Shown here: piece by piece, positions 12,300-61,470 of the stretch | Layout of the letters: each line of letters opens with the position of its first letter | Numbering within the stretch: the first letter of the stretch is position 1 | From: Euprymna scolopes | Taxonomy: Eukaryota | Direction: 5' to 3' (one strand) | Assembly: GCA_053919585.1 (NCBI GenBank) | Contig: CM132789.1 | Length of the DNA stretch: 64,000 bases | The notes under the pieces: generated by a model | Told to the model about the DNA's origin: nothing | Databases searched by the model: none | The model's input: only the letters and a program-made list of their open reading frames with translations | Program-made: the position numbers and the translations under genes

Positions 12300-12996
12300 C
12301 ACCACAAAATCAACGCTATCTATTTTACTAGCTGTTCCTAACTGACATTGCTTGGGAACAGTTAGATGCAAGGTTGGTTTTTTATATGAGGGAATCCAGC
12401 CCTCCCAGAATAAGCACTCTGGCTTGAGACAAAAATAAATAGATTTAGTCTAAAATAATTTATCCTTCACTAACTGAGGACAGAAAATATGAAATCTTGT
12501 ATCAAAACAGATATTACACTTTGTTCCTAGCCAGAAGGTCTAGAAATCTTTCCTTTCCTTTGCTTTAAATTTTTATAAACAATCTCCTTTATTTGATTTT
12601 TTTTTCATTTTTTTTTACCAAATTTTTTAAAGAGGATTTTTAAGTTAAATTTAATCATTACAATATTTTGTTATTGCATTATTAATTGAAGAAAATGTTT
12701 GAAAAAACAAATTTTGTTTATGTAATGTTGTTTTAATTTTTATTTCTAAAAAAAATGATTAAATATAAATAGTTTCCAAAACTTTCAATCTTTTGATAAA
12801 TTAGGTATTAATAAGGTAAGATTTTTTAAGTCAGAATTGACTTTCTATTTGACAGTTTAAATGCTTCTAAATTCCTTAAAATTTTTAAGTATCACAAAAT
12901 TATGACTCATATTTTTCATGATTAACAAAAGATTAAACTGACTCATTTATTTACAAATAAACCAAAATGTGTTAGGGTAGATTTCATTTCTTCAAT

Positions 12997-15787: not shown

Positions 15788-16088
15788 TTATATTATATAC
15801 GCCATAATCATATTGACACACCGGTTCCCATCAGATCATCAAAGTTAAGCAATGTTGAACCTGGTCAATAGTAAAATGGGTGACCATTTGGGACTTTCAG
15901 GTGCTGCATGTGCTCTTTGCTTATCTCGGCATTGTTTCCAGTCAGCCTTGGCCCTCTCCTTGCCACTGGACCCAAGCAGTGCCGATTCAGGAGGTGTGGT
16001 TGGAGATTGCGCAATTCTTGCCTTACAATTACATGTATAGCTATCCTTACATGAGTGACCATTGTTTCTTGAGACTGAACAGAGGCAT
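15788..16088 (+). mobile_element. 5S rRNA-headed SINE (SINE3-like) with 10-bp TSD, inserted in the tail of an S1 element
   Basis: ~15795-15911 aligns end to end with invertebrate 5S rRNA (GCCATA...ACACCGGTTC...GATC...AAGTTAAGCAA...ATGGGTGACC...TGGGA...GGTGCTG). A ~175-bp unrelated body follows. TGAGAACAGT is duplicated at 15778-15787 and 16089-16098. Confidence 0.8.
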
Positions 16089-39476: not shown

Positions 39477-39529
<53 letters not shown>

Positions 39530-39619
39530 CTACTTCATTTATTCACATAGAATTAATATACCAAAGTATAAATTTATGCGTAAACTTTAAGTATTTACTT
39601 CAAAAGTGCTCAATACGTA

Positions 39620-41250
39620 CAGTGATGATCATATTTATTGGCACGGTAAAATAAAAGTTAAATTTTGTCTAATAAATTCTAAAAAAGGGATTAAATTAAA
39701 GAAAATAACAAAGTATATTATGTATTTTTAACTGGCCTTTCCGATGCAGCAATCGGATTTTAGAAAAAATAAATAACAAAGGAACAAACATAATTGCAAA
39801 AAACCCTTGTTCAAAATTATTGGCACGGCTTTGTTTTTATTTTAGTATCAGTATAATATCAATCAATTTCCGGTTTACGTGCTTTCTGAACTTTTTTATA
39901 GCCATATTATGCTTGTTTAACGCTAATTCAGTGAATAATTTTTTTCAGATAATTTTTAGATAGCGATTTATTTAAACTATTATAAGTGACTAAATTATAA
40001 TTTTTAATCGCCATGGTTAAAACTAAGGAATACAGCGAAGACGTCAGGAAGCTTGTTGTAGCATGCCATACCAATGGGGAGGGCTATGATAAGATTTCAA
40101 AGAAGCTAAACCTTCCCAAATCTACTGTTAGAGCCATAATAAACAAGTTCAAATCGCAAGGCCACGTTATGAGTTTAGAGGGTAGAGGGAGAAATAGGAT
40201 TCTTTCCCCAAGAGATGAACGGAAAATTGTTCGACAAGTAAAACAAAACCCAAGGATCTCTGTTGGGGAGATTGTTGATGAACAGAGCACCTCTGGAGTG
40301 AATGTATCTCGACATACAGTTGGTAGAGTTTTGAAGAGAGCTGGTTTAAAAGCATGTCGTCCGAGAAAGACTCCCTTATTGAAGCCTATGCACCTGAAAG
40401 CAAGGCTAGCCTTTGCAAAACGTCATATTGATAAAGATGTTGCATTCTGGAAACGTGTTCTATGGACTGACGAAACGAAAATAGTTATTTGGCCATAATA
40501 AAGTGTCTTATATTTACAGAAAATCTGGCGAAGCTTTCCTGCCTAAGAACACCATACCCACAGTGAAGCACGGTGAAGGCAGTTTGATGTTTTGGGGATC
40601 CTTTGCTGCCTCTGGACCAGGGCGACTTGTTATGGTCACAGGTAGCATAAAAAAGGAAGATTATGTTAAAATATTGGATGAAAACCTGAAAGACTCTGCT
40701 AAAGAGCTCTCACTTGGTCGTCGTTGGTGGTTCATGCAAGATAATGAGCCAAAGCATTCGGCTAAACTGACTAAGAAATGGCTTGAGGACAATCATATTA
40801 ATGTTTTGGAGTGGCCATCACAAAGCCCAGACCTTAATCCAATTGAAAATTTATGGAGAACATTAAAATTGAGGGTAATGCAAAGGAAGCCTAAGAATCT
40901 TATTCAATTGGAGGATTATTGTCAGGAAGAGTGGGCTAAAATTACTACTGAAGAGTGCAACAACTTGGTTGTAAACTATGAAAAGCGACTGAGGAAGGTA
41001 ATCAAGGCCAAAGGCTATACAATTGATTATTAAATAAATCGTGCCAATAATTTTGAACAAGGGTTTTTTGCAATTATGTTTGTTGTTCCTTTGTTATTTA
41101 TTTTTTCTAAAATCCGATTGCTGCATCGGAAAGGCCAGTTAAAAATACATAATATACTTTGTTATTTTCTTTAATTTAATCCCTTTTTTAGAATTTATTA
41201 GACAAAATTTAACTTTTATTTTACCGTGCCAATAAATATGATCATCACTG
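39620..41250 (+). mobile_element. Tc1-family DNA transposon (1631 bp) with IR/DR ends and TA TSD
   Basis: ~210-bp near-identical TIRs (39620-39827, 41040-41250) starting CAGTGATGATC; TATTGGCACG direct repeats at the outer and inner TIR ends; TA on both sides. Confidence 0.97.
40013..41033 (+). pseudogene. Tc1 DD34E transposase with a single frameshift
   Basis: ORFs 40013-40498 and 40503-41033 give a paired-like HTH, WTDETK, TVKHG, MQDNEPKH and WPSQSPDLNPIE (34 aa between the second D and E). An apparent 2-nt deletion falls in the KIELFG codons near 40483. Confidence 0.93.
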
Positions 41251-41292
41251 TAGGTAGAGCTAGTTAGTAATTTATAAAATATATATGGCGAT

Positions 41293-41345
41293 TAAGCTAC
41301 ACTGAATATTCTGCGTTTCATCCACTCTAGGATTATTCAAGCTTA
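41293..41345 (-). ncRNA. Hammerhead ribozyme motif in the inverted 5' pseudo-LTR (core mutated)
   Basis: Minus strand reads TAAGC-TTGAATA-ATCC tagagt GGAT-GAAA-CGCAG aatatt CAGTG-TA-GCTTA. Confidence 0.65.
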
Positions 41346-41455
41346 TGCGCAATTTTGTGGTTGTCTGTCATTTTTATATACGCACCTTCTATACTTAGCT
41401 CTTGAAACAGTTGAGCACTCTCAAAAGAATTTATTTCACCACATTAAAAATAGAT

Positions 41456-44165
41456 ATGGAAAGAGTTAATTTCGAAATATCGCTAAAACACATCCCCACA
41501 CCTAGCAAGCATAGCTATATCATTAAATTAATTAAAAAAAAACAGATGAACTAATACGCCGAATGCAATGGCGAGCAAATGTCTTTATTAAAAATGAAAA
41601 AGTAAACAAAAAAGAATCCCAAGGTTTTAAAACCCTAAAAAGTGCAAAAACAGTAGACCTTTTGATAAACTTTGAAAATAACCTCTTAAACGTAGTTAAA
41701 AACTTAGAATTCCACAATCAACCTAACAATTTCCAACGGAAACGACACAAAATCGTTAGAAACATAAAGAACTCTAATAAAATCTTTATAAAAGCAGATA
41801 AAACTAGAAATTTTATAAAATAGATAAACAAGAATATAACAAACTAATCACAGAAAACATTACAAAAAACTACAAAAAACTAGACACAAATGAATGCGAC
41901 TACATAGATATAATAAATACTGAAAGTAAACAAATTACCGATAAATTAAAAATTAGCGATAAAGTTGGCAAATTGAAACCTAGAGGCATACATTCTGCTC
42001 AAAGACCACAAATGGGACTTCAATAATAATCCCAGCACCCGCTTGATAAACCCAACTAAACCAGAAATAGGTAGAATTAGCAAAGCAATACTTTCTAGAG
42101 TAAACAAACAAATCAAACAAGACCTAGAATTAAACCAGTGGGCAAATACTGCGAAGCAATCACCTGGTTTAAAAATATAGAAAACAAAAAAAAAATGTAC
42201 GTTTATACAGTTCGACCTCATAGACTTCTATCCCTCCGTATCCAAAGAACTTTTTAACATTGCCCTAGAATTTGCTGAGGCATACACTGATATATCCTCG
42301 GAGGAAATCAACATCATTAAAAAATGTAGAAAATCAGTTCTAATAAATAACAATAACCAATGGATAAAAACTAAAATGACAAATTCGTTTGATTTGGTGA
42401 TGGGTGCCCTGGATTCTGCAGAGGCATCAGATCTTGTGGGATTATCCATTCTATATACCGTCACAAGCATATTTGATACTACGGACATCGGCCTATATAG
42501 AGATGATGGATTAGCTATAATAAAAGACTCCAACAAAGTCAAGGGAGATAAATTTAGAAAATCATACACAAGGAAATGAAAAAGTTAGGCCTAAAAGTAG
42601 ATGTATTAGCTAACATAAAAATAACAAACTTCCTGGACGTCACGTTAAATTTAGATAAAAACACATATGAACCCTACTTAAAAGATAACGTTACTCCAAT
42701 ATACGTCCACCATCATTTATAAACCAGATTCCTAACTCGATCGTAAGTAGACTTAGCAATAACTCAAGCAATGAAAATGCATTTAACAGGTCAACCAATA
42801 TCTATGAAACAGCCCTAAAAGGGAGTGGATACAAAAACATTGATATTTTTTTTTTTTTACACAGTGATCACCACTTATCAAGGCCCAGAAGCCACTCAGG
42901 GATAAGGGTTATTGCAAGTACATTACGTTAGTTTGGAGATTTGCTGAAGTGTTTACTTAAGGGGGCGGTTCATTAGGAATTTGTTAACATTGGACTTGAA
43001 GACATCCAAGTTGTAGTCCAGAGGGAAGCAGGCAGACAGAACAGAGTTCCACAGGCGTGCAGTTCTAAGAAAGAAGCTTTGTTCATGAAATCCGCGTTTT
43101 GATTTAGGCACAGATATAGAGTGGGGGGAATTTTTCACAGTGGATTCAGCTAGACGGGTGTTTTTCGTGAAAGATTAGCGAGGGGGGATCAGAGATTGGA
43201 GTTCAGACGAGCACCTGCCATGGAAATAACGATAAAACAAGGATAGGCTCACAACGTCTCTTCTGTGGGAGAGAGGTTGCAGGGTAGAGAAAAGGGCATC
43301 CCCCACTAAGCCACGAATATCAAATATAAACAACAAAACACCAACAACTATAATAAAATTAAAAATAGAAGAAAAAGAACTATAATTTGGTATACGGCCC
43401 CATACAATTAAATGTTAAAAACAAAACTTGGCAAGAAATTTCTAGATCTTATCGAAAAGCACTTTCCCACAACCAACCCTTACACAAAATTTTCAATAAA
43501 AATACCATAAAGTTATTCTACAGCTGCTGCGAAAATTTAGAGATAATTAAAGCACATAATAACAAAATATTAAATTAAAACAATGTAAACAACAACAAAA
43601 TAAACAATAAAAAAAGTAGACACCATGACAAAAATAAAACTAACACAAAAGACACATATATAACTAGCAGAAATAATAATAATAAACCAACTCCGGACAA
43701 CAACAACCATACAAGAAATAAAAATAAAAATACTAATAATGAACAAGATAAATGCAACTGTAGATACCATACATTTTGTCCACTTCAAAATAAATGTCTA
43801 ACCAAAAGCATAGTTTACCAGGCCACGATATTTGCAAAAGAAAACCCGAATAACCAGAAATATTATGTAGGTATGACTTCCTTAGATTTCAAAACTCGAT
43901 ATTATGACCACAAAAGTACATTCAACAATGAAAAACACCGTATGAAAACAAAGCTAGCAAATAAATACTGGGAACTCAAGGAAAGCGGCCATTCGCTGGT
44001 AGTCGAATGGAAAATAGTAAGACAAGCAAACACCTGTAGAGACCTAGACGATCCATGTAGATTATGCCTTCATGAAAAATTTGCTATCCTGTACTTTAAA
44101 GAACCCTAACATCTATTAAATGTAGGAGAGGAATAGCGAACGACTATGTTCACAGGATAAAATAG
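41456..44165 (+). pseudogene. Naiad-type Penelope RT + C-terminal GIY-YIG endonuclease ORF (frameshifted, interrupted)
   Basis: MERVNFEISLKHIPTPS...RRMQWRA; KADKTRN; RLINPTKPEIGRISK; FDLIDFYPS; FDLVMGALDSAE; GLYRDDGL; NFLDVTLNL; zinc knuckle CNCRYHTFCPLQNKC; SIVY...YYVGMT...FKTRY; CRLCLHEK. Confidence 0.9.
42847..43316 (-). mobile_element. 5'-truncated subfamily A LINE nested in the Naiad RT
   Basis: Poly(T) at the left end; collinear with 17190-17690; ATAT duplicated at 42843-42846 and 43317-43320. Removing it restores Naiad ...SGYKNIDIKYKQ. Confidence 0.9.
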
Positions 44166-44234
44166 AAAATAAACAAATAAAATAAATAGAAGATGGAAGA
44201 AAATAAACAAATAAAATAAATAGAAGATGGAAGA

Positions 44235-46180
44235 AAATAAACAAATACAATAGATAGAAGCTAGAAATAACGTTAAGAAAGAAATAGCGACAGCCAAGAG
44301 AGAATTTACTGAAACCACTAAAAAACGCATCGAAGCACAAAAATTGGGAAATCGTGACTTCTGGAAAATCTACAACAGTGTAGTAAATAATGGGCAATCA
44401 ACAATTCCCCCACTAACCAACAATCACGAGGTTGTTTGCTCAGCAACCGACAAAGCTAATATGCTTGCCAGCCAGTTTGCCTCGAACTCCACACTGGACC
44501 CTTCCAACCACCCCCTGCCTGACTTTCCTTTGCGGACAGACGCCACGCTAGACGATCTAAAAATCACCCCTGCTCAGGTACATGCTATCATAAAAAATCT
44601 TGACACTTCAAAACATGTGGACCTGATCTCATCCCAGCTGTGCTATTAAAAAAGTGCTCAGCCGAAGTAGCTCCAGTTCTCTCCAAACTCTACAACAAAT
44701 GCCTTAATGAATCCTGCTTTCCAGGCTGTTGGAAAACCGCTTCTGTGGTACCAATATTCAAGAATTCTGGCGAAAGAACTGACCCATCAAATTATCGCCC
44801 CATTAGCCTCCTCCCACTTTTTGCCAAAATATTTGAGACCATGATTAACCATGCTCTAGTCCGGCACCTTACAGATGCTAAACTTCTGACTGCCAAACAA
44901 TATGGATTTAGACAAGCCCGTTCCACAGCTGACATCCTCACTGTAATCTCTGAACGTACATACCATTCACTGGACAAAGCGGGGGAGGGTAGAGCGGTAA
45001 CTCTAGATATATCTAAGGCTTTTAACAGGGTATGGCACAAAGGTCTCCTCAGGAAAATTAAATCATACGGTATCACTGGTAGAATACTTAGCATAATTAA
45101 ATCCTTCTTAGATAAGAGAAAAATCCAGGTTGTCCTCGACGGTCGAACATCTAAACAGTGTGATATAAATGCGGGAGTGCCTCAGGGGTCTATTCTTGGA
45201 CCTCTATTATTCCTGATATTTATTAATGACCTCTCCGACAAAACTGCCTCTGAGATGGGTATATATGCTGATGACACTACACTCTATAACAGGAAAACAA
45301 ATGAACACATATCTAAAGAAATGGCAAAAACACTAGAGGATGACCTCCAATCTGTAGTGGAATGGGAACATAAATGGATGGTCACATTCAATGATGCCAA
45401 GACTAAACTCGTTTCCTTCAATAACTACAAGAAACCTTCTCTGCCACCAATAGCAATGGCCAGTAACTCCCTGTCTGAGCGTACATCTTTCAAACTGCTT
45501 GGCCTAACGTTCACAGAAAACATGAGCTGGAACAATTATATTGAAAACATTGCCAGAGCCGCTGCAAAAAAGGTAGGCTCTCTCTACGTGCTAGAAAACT
45601 ACTGACACCTGAAAGTATCCTGTATCTCTATAAGGCCACCATTCGCCCATGTATGGAGTATTGTCACATTTGGGCTGGTGCATCTGCTACTAGTCTCTCG
45701 CTCCTTGACAAGGTTCAAAAAAGAGTCGCCAATCTGATAGGCCCTGAACTGGCATCTAAGCTTCAGCCTCTGTCTCATCGACGAAACGTTGCGTCCCTCA
45801 GCTTGTTCTACAAGTATTTTAATGGTGAATGCTCTGACGAACTGCAGACACTTGTGCCCCCACGAAGCAGACACCCTCGACAAACCCGACAGGCAGCTAA
45901 ATCCCACCCCCACACAGTAGAGATCCCTAGATGTAAAAGATCTTTCCACTCCAGTAGTTTCTTCCCCAGAACCGCTAGACTCTGGATTCCATTCCAGGAT
46001 CCTGCTTCCCTAACTGTACTGACATGGAGAAGTTCAAGTGCAACGTGAACCGACATCTTGCTGCCCAAATCCCTACATAGTGCCCCAGTAGTTGCTGACC
46101 CTGATAGTAGCCCCTACACCAAAGTGGCAATGTGCCTTGTTTGGGGTGAAAATGTAATAAAAAATAAAAAAAATAAAATA
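44235..46180 (+). mobile_element. 5'-truncated CR1/L2-group LINE subfamily B nested in the Naiad 3' region
   Basis: ORFs 44344-44649, 44640-45605 (QYGF, GVPQGSILGP, YADD) and 45653-46048; A-rich tail at 46156-46187; 34-bp tandem duplication just 5' of it (44167-44234). Confidence 0.92.
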
Positions 46181-46480
46181 AAATAAACATGCACATACAT
46201 AAACTATCATACATATATATGTATGTATGTCTATATATAAACTAACATAAAAAAACAAAACCTAACCTAGATTTAAAACAGGTCAAGACGCTAGATATCC
46301 AGGCTAAATAGAACACACACAAAGAATCAGGTCAATCAGAGGTCAAATGGGCCTTTGTCCTGTAAGTGCATGTTCATTGGCTGATAGGAAGGTGCGGTGG
46401 ATGCTAGAAAGCTGATTGGCTAACTAAAATCTCAATAGAAGTGCGTATATAAAACGACAGACAACCACAAAATTCGCACA

Positions 46481-46534
46481 TAAGCCTGGAGAATCCTAGA
46501 GTGGATGAAACGCGGAATATTCAATTGTAGCTTA
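46481..46534 (+). ncRNA. Hammerhead ribozyme motif in the 3' pseudo-LTR (core A6G variant)
   Basis: TAAGC-CTGGAGA-ATCC tagagt GGAT-GAAA-CGCGG aatatt CAATTG-TA-GCTTA; GUA cleavage triplet; stems I and II perfect. Confidence 0.7.
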
Positions 46535-46557
46535 ATCGCCATATATATTTTATAAAT

Positions 46558-46600
<43 letters not shown>

Positions 46601-47039
46601 TGTGTGTGTGTACTATAAAATAACGTCTCCTCACGAGCAGTGAATTCAATAAGTAAAAGATATTTTAATCTTAAAATTTTCAATTCTTTTTATCAACAAT
46701 TTTTCTTTCACCATTTCCTTTCTGTTCCAAGGAGAAAAAAAAAAACTCTAATTTTTTTCTGAGGAACATACTTCTGTCTCCGATTAGTTGTTTGGTTAAT
46801 TTCTGCTATTCAACAAAACACGTGTAAGACGTACTACATTAACGCATGAATAAAATACTATGAGTGGGGAATAAATACATTTTCTGGATATGTATATTCT
46901 TTGGCACCATAGTCTGAATAACACCCAGACAATGTAAGAGTTAATCTCATGAATTTAATATATTTATCTAACAGTGCTCAATAACAAGTAACAATATATT
47001 TCAGTATTTATTTTATTTATACAAACATATTGGCTACAT

Positions 47040-47101
47040 ATTGGAAGACATGTTTCGGTTATAGCCTTTTTTTTTTAAGGCAGCAGCTTCTTCAGGCCAA
47101 T
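47040..47101 (-). ncRNA. Decayed hammerhead motif in a Penelope pseudo-LTR fragment
   Basis: Minus strand reads ATTGGC-CTGAAGA-...-TAACC-GAAA-CATG-TC-TTCCAAT. The downstream flank (TAGCCAA...TTGAGCACT) matches the 29702-29800 relic. Confidence 0.5.
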
Positions 47102-47661
47102 CTAAGAGTGATAGTAGTTAAATTGACCTCATGATACTTTTGTCTTGAAAAAGTCTATAGTGAAGACAACATCCAGAATATATGTAAACAAAATGTTTGT
47201 ATTAAATAAAATGTAGTAGTAGTAGTAGTAGTAGTAGTAGTAATAATAATCTGAAAATATACTCATGGCAAGTGTTTGTTTTCAATTTTTACTATCTTTA
47301 CATATCTGGCGTTGCCCCAAATTATATATATATATATATATATATACATCTCTTTCCACCATTTCTCTCTCTTTCTCCCCCCTCCTTCTATTCCTATCCG
47401 TGTCTAGTTTAATATTTTAAACTCTCCTTCGCCCCTTGATTTTAACCCCTCTCACCCTTATCACCTTCCAGTGTCTTTTAAAACTTAACTGCTGCTGATA
47501 TCTGATTCATTCTCTCCCTCCCCCCTGTTTTGTGTATTCTTCTTTTTCTTATATCTTTTTTCCCCTAATCATAATAATTATTTTTGTAAAGTTTGATGAA
47601 ATTATTGGAATGTTGATACTTTTTTCGCTAATCGAAACATGTGTAACTAAGCAGATCAAAC

Positions 47662-50649: not shown

Positions 50650-51460
50650 TTACAGCTATTGAGTGAAATTCTAAACTTCAGGGAACTTCAAAACTTAAAT
50701 TTTAGAAGTGAAATAGCAAACAACTGTATACACAAAATAAAATTTACTTTAGAATAACAATGCATGAGAAAAATAAAAGAAATATTTAGAATGAAGTTTT
50801 CCAATCACGCATATGTTAAGATAGGCTGAAGTATTAATTTAAAACATTCACAAATAAACAGTGCATCACTGTATAGAAAGCAAAACAGTAGAATAGGAAG
50901 TAGATATCAACCAAACCTTTATTTGGTTGAAGCACAGCTATTGGATAATGGACACTTCAACTCACAGGTGAGAATAAATATGAATCTGATTGGTTAACAA
51001 ACTTCAATATGCATGAAAACAAACGATAAAATAAAAAAAAACTTTATATACTCAAGCCCTGAAATTGTTTGGCCTGATAATTGCCAATTTGTCTGGAAGC
51101 TCAAAGAAAACGGGCACTTGCCAATAATCGAGTTGAAAATAGTATGACACGTCAGTACATGTTGAAATTTAGAAGACCGATGTGAACTATTTCTGAATCA
51201 AGAAATTTGAAATTCTAAACTTTAAAAACTCCAAAGCCTATTAAATGGTAGGAGTGAAATAATATACAACTGTATACACAGATTAAAAGTTATTTTAGAA
51301 TGATAATACATAAGAAAAATAAAATGAAATTATTATTAATAAAAAAGTACTCCAAGCATGCGCAAGTTAAGATAAGCTTGACTATTAATTCAGCAAATTC
51401 ACAAAAGAAAAGTGATCAACAACAAAAAACATAAGACTCAATTGTGATATAAACTAACCC
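50650..51460 (+). mobile_element. Two tandem 3' fragments of a Naiad-related Penelope element
   Basis: LNFRSEIANNCIHKIK and WKLKENGHLPIIELKIV resemble 43960-44160. GTGAAATA...CAACTGTATACACA...GTTAAGATA occurs twice (~50708 and ~51254). Confidence 0.65.
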
Positions 51461-51790: not shown

Positions 51791-51832
51791 TTTTTTTTTT
51801 TAAAAAAAAGAGCTTGTATAAATTTAGGATTT

Positions 51833-52448
51833 GAAAAATCGAAACTTTAAATTAAAAATTTCACACAAAACCAGACTTTAAAAAATAAGTTTTGAAAAAT
51901 TGAAACTTTAAATTAAACATTTCACACAAAACCAGACTTTAAAAAATATGTTTGAAAAATTGAAACTTTAAATTAAACATTTCACACAAAACCAGACTTT
52001 AAAAAATAAGTTTTGAAAAATTGAAACTTTAAATTAAACATTTCACACAAAACCAGACTTTAAAAAATAAGTTTTGAAAAATTGAAACTTTAAATTAAAC
52101 ATTTCACACAAAACCAGACTTTAAAAAATAAGTTTTGAAAAATTGAAACTTTAAATTAAACATTTCACACAAAACCAGACTTTAAAAAATAAGTTTTGAA
52201 AAATTGAAACTTTAAATTAAACATTTCACACAAAACCAGACTTTAAAAAATAAGTTTTGAAAAATTGAAACTTTAAATTAAACATTTCACACAAAACCAG
52301 ACTTTAAAAAATAAGTTTTGAAAAATTGAAACTTTAAATTAAACATTTCACACAAAACCAGACTTTAAAAAATAAGTTTTGAAAAATTGAAACTTTAAAT
52401 TAAACATTTCACACAAAACCAGACTTTAAAAAATATGTTTGAAAAATT
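51833..52448. repeat. Highly homogeneous 61-bp tandem array, 10 units
   Basis: Unit GAAAAATTGAAACTTTAAATTAAACATTTCACACAAAACCAGACTTTAAAAAATAAGTTTT; units 3-9 appear identical; units 2 and 10 are 60-bp variants. Confidence 0.97.
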
Positions 52449-61305: not shown

Positions 61306-61351
<46 letters not shown>

Positions 61352-61354
<3 letters not shown>

Positions 61355-61466
61355 TATAAAATACTACTTAGCTCTACCTACATATTGAGCACTGTTGAAG
61401 TAAATACTTAAAGTTTATGCATAAATTTCTCCTTTCGTATATTAATTTATGTGATTAAATTAAGTA

Positions 61467-61470
<4 letters not shown>
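61352..61470 (+). mobile_element. Solo Naiad pseudo-LTR tip inserted in (TA)n
   Basis: Reverse complement of 39528-39619 joined to 41253-41278, i.e. the Tc1-free state; (TA)n on both sides. Confidence 0.8.

What the first reader, a model, noticed from the sequence alone, without database searches (positions are those of the whole stretch)
39480..46597. Naiad-type Penelope element with hammerheads in both pseudo-LTRs and apparent (TA)n targeting
Seen: a complete but decayed RT + CCCC knuckle + GIY-YIG with an internal CxxC; inverted 5' and direct 3' pLTRs, each with a hammerhead. Their mutations are complementary (UUGAAUA vs CUGGAGA, consensus CUGAAGA), with a GUA site and an extended stem III hairpin centred on AATATT rather than the tiny stem III typical of PLE ribozymes. 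Both ends abut (TA)n, as does the solo tip at 61352-61470. Inference: a microsatellite-targeting family whose ancestral ribozyme could work as a monomer.
Basis: partly seen in the sequence, partly recalled or inferred. Interest (0 to 1): 0.7.

Follow-up and report, generated by a model that had tools for sequence, protein, structure and literature searches.

The report
Hydra-clade Penelope with long-stem hammerhead
This is a broken copy of a known, very abundant kind of animal jumping gene; what is unusual is that its self-cutting RNA motif has a much longer third stem than its described relatives, so it may work as a single molecule, and that a small conserved RNA hairpin sits just beyond both places where copies end, likely marking where copying into DNA starts.

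Summary
The hammerheads, RT, GIY-YIG and (TA)n flanks are real, but the element is not a Naiad. Its endonuclease is C-terminal, with DKT, CxCX5C and CxxC/CxH motifs: the Hydra clade (PMC8557442), for which hammerheads and (TA)n preference are published. The span is a nest: about 2.9 kb of decayed element plus a Tc1 and two LINE pieces. One hammerhead pattern matches 52,832 times in the genome. Two features go beyond the papers read. (1) Helix III encloses 14-16 nt in at least five host families, against 7-8 nt in 26 of 26 published Hydra rows and at most 8 nt in 49 of 49 metagenome loci with a hammerhead. It is a weak hairpin and nearly self-complementary, so monomer activity is possible but a dimer is not excluded. 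(2) 77 of 84 termini fall on two TA sites 105 nt apart, each followed by a bulged GCUC/GAGC-ACU hairpin that covaries across the clade: likely the internal RT start signal. The scan had already noted this twin hairpin in other genomes. Nothing was assayed; RNA reads show no cut at the ribozyme site.

The parts
39481..39528 (.). (TA)n array at the outer end of the inverted arm
39529..39619 (-). Inverted arm, tail part; ends at end site B; holds the 3' half of hairpin A (39605-39619)
   Evidence: 96% to family majority
39620..41250 (+). Later insertion: Tc1/mariner with about 210-bp terminal inverted repeats and duplicated TA, splitting hairpin A; transposase broken by a frameshift near 40490
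41251..41392 (-). Inverted arm, pLTR part (TATA box, hammerhead, site A, 5' half of hairpin A)
41294..41344 (-). Hammerhead copy 1, core mutated (UUGAAUA), predicted cut between 41298 and 41297
41390..41455 (+). 5' UTR starting at end site B, with hairpin B at 41398-41419
41456..42846 (+). ORF part 1: N-terminal region (RMQWRA, ADKT) and RT core (YRDD); several frameshifts and stops
   Evidence: 93% to family majority
42847..43316 (-). Later insertion: reversed 3' fragment of a LINE with poly(A) tail
43317..44163 (+). ORF part 2: RT C-terminus, Asn-rich spacer, CxCX5C linker (43753-43779), C-terminal GIY-YIG (VY...YVG), CxxC before the conserved E, premature stop at 44107, frameshifted CxH
44250..46155 (+). 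Later insertion: 5'-truncated LINE with RT (borders approximate)
46156..46560 (+). 3' pseudo-LTR: ATTGG boxes, TATA box at 46446, hammerhead, ending at end site A (46560)
46482..46533 (+). Hammerhead copy 2, core mutated (CUGGAGA), extended helix III, predicted cut after 46529
46561..46596 (.). (TA)n array at end site A
61351..61470 (+). Separate solo tail of a related subfamily from just before site A to site B, with intact hairpin A (61371-61393), (TA)n on both sides, no hammerhead

Best explanation
This is a decayed, thrice-interrupted copy of a Hydra-clade Penelope-like retrotransposon whose copies end at either of two TA sites, each likely chosen because the element's protein binds a conserved bulged RNA hairpin a few bases downstream, and whose hammerhead has an extended third stem predicted to let it fold as a monomer. 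Steps: (1, inferred) RNA starts in the pLTR about 30 nt after the TATA box, just before the hammerhead. (2, inferred from PMC11167929 and from the ends) the RT-GIY-YIG protein nicks a (TA)n array and starts reverse transcription inside the RNA at a UA 4-6 nt 5' of hairpin A or B, so that hairpin is not copied; (shown) 77 of 84 termini lie on these two sites. (3, shown) copies are often joined to an inverted 5'-truncated copy, so both outer ends of a unit are start ends, which is why both abut (TA)n. (4, inferred) templates are mostly uncut by the ribozyme, since short fold-back copies carry whole hammerheads. (5, shown) the core is conserved with N7 free, and helix III is long in at least five host families; (untested) it cleaves, as monomer or dimer. 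Odds: clade identity 0.95; hairpin as RT start signal 0.65; useful monomer cleavage 0.5.
For: Clade: domain order and motifs match section 11 of PMC8557442; N-terminus matches Hydra-1_Ajap and Hydra-1_Obim by eye; of the 120 best homologues 106 show a C-terminal and none an N-terminal GIY-YIG pattern, 110 CxCX5C, 80 DKT. Ends: 77 of 84 non-read-through termini at A (39) or B (38); 64 of these 77 have at least 3 TA units within 3 nt, against 1.2% of window positions; RNA reads break off into (TA)n at the same two places (201 and 383 reads in X24). A sister family with intact ORFs (about 66% DNA identity) also has two ends about 85 nt apart, each followed by the hairpin. Hairpin: 84 sense hits in 47 of 78 metagenome loci against 0-2 in 20 shuffles; the first upper pair, not fixed by the pattern, is C-G in 59, U-A in 24, unpaired in 1; 23 double-sided changes against 7.6 +/- 2.2; in 9 relatives informative by eye the 3' copy stops 3-11 nt before a hairpin. 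Helix III: 14-16 nt enclosed in five host families against at most 8 nt in 49 of 49 metagenome loci with a hammerhead and 7-8 nt in 26 of 26 published rows. Fold-back junctions cluster just upstream of the hammerhead (family 2: 21 of 23 pairs 100-128 nt apart; family 1: 4 of 12 at a 16-nt spacing).
Against: No biochemical test. The hammerhead fold of the family-1 majority is not the minimum-energy fold (-8.5 against -10.6 kcal/mol, probability 0.011), and of family 2 far from it with the stem II I assigned (-9.4 against -17.0). Isolated helix III hairpins are weak (0 to -5.0 kcal/mol) and nearly self-complementary, with duplexes at -10.9 to -16.3. RNA reads show no pile-up of ends at the cut site in either family and lie on both strands, as expected from passive read-through of scattered copies. 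Direct 5' ends abutting (TA)n are scattered, with no evident excess at the cut site among the places listed. Only 7 of 46 free 5' ends abut (TA)n (crude count) and no empty site was found, so a pre-existing target array is not proven. The pair count uses motif-selected rows, about 6 of 56 misaligned. No tree against Naiad, Neptune or Poseidon references was built.
Confidence: 0.68

Rival explanations
1. The long helix III is still a dimerisation arm, or the ribozyme needs the element's protein: two hammerheads pair through the self-complementary helix III as in other animal PLEs, and a lone copy is nearly inactive.
For: GAAUAUUC is a perfect palindrome; 12-16 of 16-18 positions are self-complementary in the long-stem rows; duplexes are far more stable than hairpins. 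Animal PLE hammerheads were reported as dimer-type with low activity (PMC4209133); the Anolis Poseidon hammerhead cleaved only with protein (PMC11167929).
Against: Any hairpin gives a stronger duplex in such a calculation. Tandem hammerheads are about 3-4.4 kb apart. One variant has a 7-bp stem with a non-palindromic loop and folds as a hammerhead at minimum energy (L075). A large helix III gave monomer activity in a fungal PLE (PMC4209133).
Confidence: 0.4
2. The twin hairpin is not an RT start signal but a DNA or RNA signal for another step (endonuclease resolution of a longer cDNA, packaging or translation), and the ends arise by cutting at the element's own TA sites.
For: PMC8557442 ascribes tails to EN-mediated resolution; the D. 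virilis EN needs the tail for recognition (as cited in PMC11167929); both sites are TA dinucleotides; 4 of 17 copies that reach the 5' UTR begin within 3 nt of site B (query-biased).
Against: Pairs vary through G-U and double-sided changes as for a single-stranded RNA fold; in Poseidon the two genomic ends were shown to be two internal RT start sites at a stem-loop.
Confidence: 0.2
3. The (TA)n arrays are largely made at insertion, by reiterative telomerase-like copying of the UA/UAUA at the start site or by later slippage, rather than being pre-existing targets.
For: TA arrays (median 19 pure units among termini selected for at least 3) sit at start ends but at only 7 of 46 free 5' ends; PLE RTs are sister to telomerase RT (PMC8557442).
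Against: 21 of 130 termini have another dinucleotide array within 150 nt against 2-5% background; an unrelated repeat family also ends at such arrays; some direct 5' ends do abut long arrays; free 5' ends include later breakage.
Confidence: 0.12
4. It is a Naiad.
For: (TA)n preference and inverted 5' copies occur in Naiads.
Against: GIY-YIG is C-terminal; DKT not DKA; canonical hammerhead present; no cysteines between the two halves of GIY-YIG.
Confidence: 0.02

Closest known systems
Hydra clade of C-terminal EN+ Penelope-like elements (Craig et al. 2021, PMC8557442; e.g. Hydra-1_Ajap, Hydra-1_Obim, Hydra-2_Amil, Penelope-1_NV)
   Same: Single ORF of about 710-740 aa, RW(K/R), DKT, CxCX5C linker, C-terminal GIY-YIG without CCHH, CxxC and CxH around E and N, canonical hammerhead, (TA)n ends, body under 3 kb, inverted 5' copies. 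The published Hydra-2_Amil consensus itself contains the bulged hairpin, without comment in the text searched.
   Different: Helix III encloses 16 nt (14-16 in sister families) instead of 7-8; tail is 105 nt rather than 30-40; RWK reads RWR; an Asn-rich spacer precedes the linker; tens of thousands of hammerhead copies, many as short fold-backs.
Poseidon element of Anolis carolinensis, PAc (Frangieh et al. 2024, PMC11167929)
   Same: Two internal RT start sites that define an optional tail; AT-rich targets; uncut RNA as main template.
   Different: Other clade; start sites lie inside the ORF in an AC-rich stem-loop and are adjacent; here they lie in the 5' UTR, 85-105 nt apart, each with its own copy of one hairpin.
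Fungal and protist PLE hammerheads with large helix III (Cervera and De la Pena 2014, PMC4209133)
   Same: Type-I hammerhead with a helix III long enough to fold alone; the Serpula motif cleaves as a monomer.
   Different: Those are endonuclease-less, telomere-associated elements outside animals; the helix here is weak and quasi-palindromic.
Naiad clade (PMC8557442)
   Same: (TA)n preference, pLTRs, inverted 5' copies.
   Different: Opposite domain order, DKA, IFD, no canonical hammerhead.

Membership tests
Naiad | GIY-YIG endonuclease N-terminal to RT | tested here: not met
   EN at 43753-44150 follows RT at 41456-42846; contiguous in uninterrupted copies
Naiad | DKG modified to DKA | tested here: not met
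   ADKT
Naiad | No canonical hammerhead | tested here: not met
   Full three-stem hammerhead
Naiad | Insertion-in-fingers domain | not tested
   No alignment to Naiad or telomerase RTs was made
Hydra clade | Single ORF with C-terminal GIY-YIG, body under 3 kb | tested here: met
   Family majority 2,945 nt; sister family with intact ORFs
Hydra clade | RWK motif and DKT | tested here: met
   RMRWRA (conservative variant; RMQWRA in the window) and ADKT; sister family RMKWKA and ADKT
Hydra clade | CxCX5C linker | tested here: met
   CNCRYHTFC at 43753-43779; 110 of 120 homologues
Hydra clade | CCHH absent; CxxC and CxH around conserved E and N | tested here: met
   No Cys between VY and YVG; CRLC before E; CVH in intact copies L107, L109, L120, frameshifted in the window
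Hydra clade | Canonical hammerhead and (TA)n insertion | tested here: met
Hydra clade | RT phylogeny groups with published Hydra elements against other PLE clades | not tested
   Reference proteins were seen only as truncated text in the paper's supplement; trees contain only homologues fetched here and have no outgroup
Monomer-active hammerhead (Serpula type) | Helix III stable enough to fold alone | tested here: inconclusive
   Hairpin 0 to -5.0 kcal/mol, quasi-palindromic
Monomer-active hammerhead (Serpula type) | Self-cleavage of a single motif in vitro | not testable with these tools
   Needs an assay; RNA reads show no end pile-up at the site

The most novel reading that the evidence does not exclude
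A sub-clade of animal Hydra-type Penelope elements has switched from the dimer-type to a monomer-active hammerhead placed at the very 5' end of the transcript, and the whole clade positions its telomerase-like RT with a duplicated, covarying bulged hairpin just 3' of each internal start site: a compact RNA signal of about 25 nt that sets where reverse transcription begins at a (TA)n nick, testable with the intact ORFs in this genome.
Probability: 0.35. Interest if true: 0.72.

Novelty: new variant of a known kind. Interest (0 to 1): 0.45.

Why it matters
How Penelope-like RTs, the sister group of telomerase, choose an internal start site and what their hammerheads do are open questions (PMC8557442, PMC11167929). 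A clade-wide hairpin tied to both genomic ends gives a precise mutagenesis target, and a sub-clade with long helix III lets monomer and dimer ribozymes be compared within one clade. The genome holds intact, near-identical ORFs of a sister family, so both tests can be run. The element class, its hammerhead and its (TA)n preference are themselves known.

Tried and rejected
Naiad assignment: rejected on domain order and motifs. Rfam found neither the hammerhead in the window nor anything at E<=1 in 6 relative loci. Pfam gave no significant hit for the five PLE fragments submitted; the PDB sequence search with the EN gave 0 hits. A first metagenome scan with one protein found no relative; the alignment query found 78 loci. 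A genomic signature of ribozyme cutting (5' ends at the cut site) was looked for and not seen (first 100 of 2,246 overlapping matches). Adapter-bearing read ends in run X23 lie 3-5 nt upstream of the predicted post-cut 5' end, at G residues, and were not counted as cleavage. Empty-site tests were inconclusive: 25 units against the local loci and two flank searches; one flank was another repeat that itself ends at TA arrays. A search for outgroup PLEs by Pfam PF26215 failed because the family is not in that library. The EN-only tree is too short to show a single origin of the long helix III (2 changes). Contig-based runs (X9) were not used as evidence of expression.
Full report
What is in the window. 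The span 39480-46597 is a nest. A Penelope-like element (PLE) occupies 41390-42846, 43317-44163 and 46156-46560, with an inverted arm at 39529-39619 plus 41251-41392. Three later insertions interrupt it: a Tc1/mariner at 39620-41250 in a TA (Pfam E 2.6e-25 and 1e-14), a reversed LINE 3' fragment at 42847-43316, and a LINE with RVT_1 (E 7.3e-37) at about 44250-46155. The PLE ORF carries several frameshifts and stops. (TA)n arrays flank both outer ends and the solo piece at 61351-61470, which has no hammerhead.

Clade. In Craig et al. 2021 (PMC8557442; I read the abstract, passages, section 11 and supplement parts 1, 2, 7 and 52 of 59, plus term searches) Naiads have an N-terminal GIY-YIG, DKA and no canonical hammerhead. 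The Hydra clade has a C-terminal GIY-YIG without CCHH, RWK, DKT, a CxCX5C linker, CxxC and CxH, canonical hammerheads and (TA)n insertion. The window's element shows the Hydra set. Of the best 120 of 871 homologues of a 447-aa piece from another copy, 106 match a C-terminal and none an N-terminal GIY-YIG pattern (14 no match), 110 have CxCX5C and 80 DKT. No tree with other clades was built, because reference proteins were seen only as truncated text. The host is an animal with a 5.9-Gb genome; one RNA run holding the sister family is labelled 'mollusc metagenome', which is a hint only.

Family. The genome gave 5,797 and 5,032 first-look candidates for the pLTR and the RT, and exact hammerhead patterns match 39,323 and 52,832 times, with 0 for the reversed controls. 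Across 107 copies the least conserved of 56 positions are N7 of CUGANGA (majority 0.60), the helix III mismatch (0.60) and a loop II base (0.70) (positions 22-51 were part of the search pattern, N7 was not). This is the pattern expected if active lineages kept a working core. A second Hydra family in the same genome, about 66% identical in the RT, has intact ORFs in tandem and 9,912 hammerhead matches; the two families group together (SH-aLRT 99) among 67 proteins (no outgroup).

Ends. In loci L001-L090 (60 chosen by likeness to the window copy, 30 by an intact core in contig order) 91 distinct hammerhead copies had 200 nt downstream; 7 read through to the ORF. Of the other 84, 39 end at site A (31 nt after the cut site) and 38 at site B, 105 nt further; 64 of these 77 are followed within 3 nt by at least 3 TA units, against 742 of 63,960 window positions. 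RNA reads break off into (TA)n at the same two places. In family 2, 28 of 38 termini were called A or B plus (TA)n by script and 8 more by eye. So the (TA)n association holds, but it is polar: only 7 of 46 free 5' ends abut TA arrays, while 74 5' ends adjoin an inverted copy and 55 a direct piece (crude). Both outer ends of this unit abut (TA)n because both are 3'-type ends. Whether the arrays pre-exist is likely (21 of 130 termini have a second kind of microsatellite within 150 nt against 2-5% background) but not proven, as no empty site was found.

Twin hairpin. In both families each end site is followed after 4-6 nt by GCUC, a short variable stem-loop, a 2-nt bulge and GAGC-ACU. The pattern gives 84 sense hits in 47 of 78 metagenome Hydra loci, often two between hammerhead and ATG, against 0-2 in 20 base shuffles; the first upper pair, free in the pattern, is C-G in 59, U-A in 24 and unpaired in 1. 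On 56 aligned instances 94% of cells pair and 23 show double-sided changes against 7.6 +/- 2.2 shuffled (rows were motif-selected and about 6 are misaligned). Of 41 relatives displayed, 9 were informative by eye, and in all 9 the 3' copy stops 3-11 nt before a hairpin. In the host a hairpin pattern matches 28,276 times (overlaps included) against 4. Frangieh et al. 2024 (PMC11167929; abstract, main text and part of methods read, supplements searched) showed that a Poseidon RT starts at two internal sites that equal the two genomic ends. By analogy A and B are likely RT start sites and the hairpin the signal; this is inference. I did not find the hairpin described in searches (listings only) or in PMC8557442 (figures not visible); subscription papers and bioRxiv supplements were not searchable. 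After these tests I saw that the scan had noted the same twin hairpin in at least four other genomes; those are AI notes, not independent support.

Helix III. The family encloses 16 nt between A15.1 and U16.1; family 2 encloses 14 and three further host families 15-16, and a diverged long-stem hammerhead lies at window 47040-47100 on the minus strand. Short-stem families also live in this genome (L257, L259). All 26 published Hydra rows enclose 7-8 nt and all 49 of 78 metagenome loci with a detected hammerhead at most 8. The three long-stem families with EN sequence fall in one sub-clade (support 99) that holds none of the metagenome DNA loci, but a single origin is not shown and the link of L245's EN to its hammerhead rests on adjacency. 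Cervera and De la Pena 2014 (PMC4209133; parts 1-2 of 4 read) describe animal PLE hammerheads as minimal or short-palindromic dimer types and large helix III only in fungi and protists, with monomer activity in Serpula. Against a simple monomer: the hairpins are weak (0 to -5.0 kcal/mol), loops are palindromic or nearly so, duplexes reach -10.9 to -16.3, and the hammerhead fold is not the minimum-energy fold of the majority sequence. A look-up for the long stem in earlier scan notes returned nothing; one search listed no paper on it by title.

RNA and promoter. Fold-back pairs make up 46 of the first 100 family-2 matches, with arms ending on average 37 nt upstream of C3; in family 1, 4 of 12 listed pairs turn at a GCGC 8 nt upstream of C3, where a start 30 nt after the TATA box at 46446 would fall. 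This suggests transcripts that begin just before the hammerhead and are copied uncut. Raw reads of three runs cover the tail on both strands, deeply in X24 (up to about 500 per mate direction), and the ORF thinly (15 or less in X24), with no place where many molecules begin or end: no sign of cleavage, though these libraries are poorly suited to show it.

Verdict. The long helix III in a host sub-clade and the clade-wide twin hairpin are variants not found in the papers I could search, both untested at the bench, the second already seen by this scan elsewhere. New variant of a known kind; interest 0.45.

Noticed in passing
window 46940-47105, minus strand: Another, diverged Hydra-type end about 400 nt downstream of the finding: hammerhead (CUGAAGA at 47095) with a 16-nt helix III and a decayed hairpin.
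   Followed up: partly
L199 = G000:C3:36913500-36923400: Second Hydra family with two identical intact ORFs in 4,421-nt tandem; more open frames of 720-740 aa listed. Likely recently active and suited to biochemical tests.
   Followed up: partly
L208-L236: Abundant 310-330-bp fold-back mini-elements made of two head-to-head hammerhead ends between TA arrays.
   Followed up: partly
window 41390; L046, L048, L034: 4 of 17 copies reaching the 5' UTR begin within 3 nt of site B, as if copying also stops, or resolution occurs, at the start site; small and query-biased sample.
   Followed up: no
window 39620-41250; L008: The Tc1 family is young: a 98.9% identical copy lies next to another PLE end in L008.
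   Followed up: no
window 21841 (+) and 447 (-): Two minimal-type hammerhead cores (CUGAAGA...GAAACGUU) that may belong to another PLE family.
   Followed up: no
window 15795-15912 and 12372-12550: 5S rRNA-like match (58 bits, E 1.5e-9) and a weak U2-like match below the gathering score; possibly pseudogene or SINE heads.
   Followed up: no
window 50695-50764: 70-bp remnant of the EN C-terminus of a related Hydra copy, 86% identical.
   Followed up: no
L275-L294: An unrelated repeat family (1,586 candidates) in which several copies stop at the same point next to TA arrays and some fold back on themselves.
   Followed up: no
window 51830-52448: 61-bp tandem repeat, 10 copies, 98% matches.
   Followed up: no
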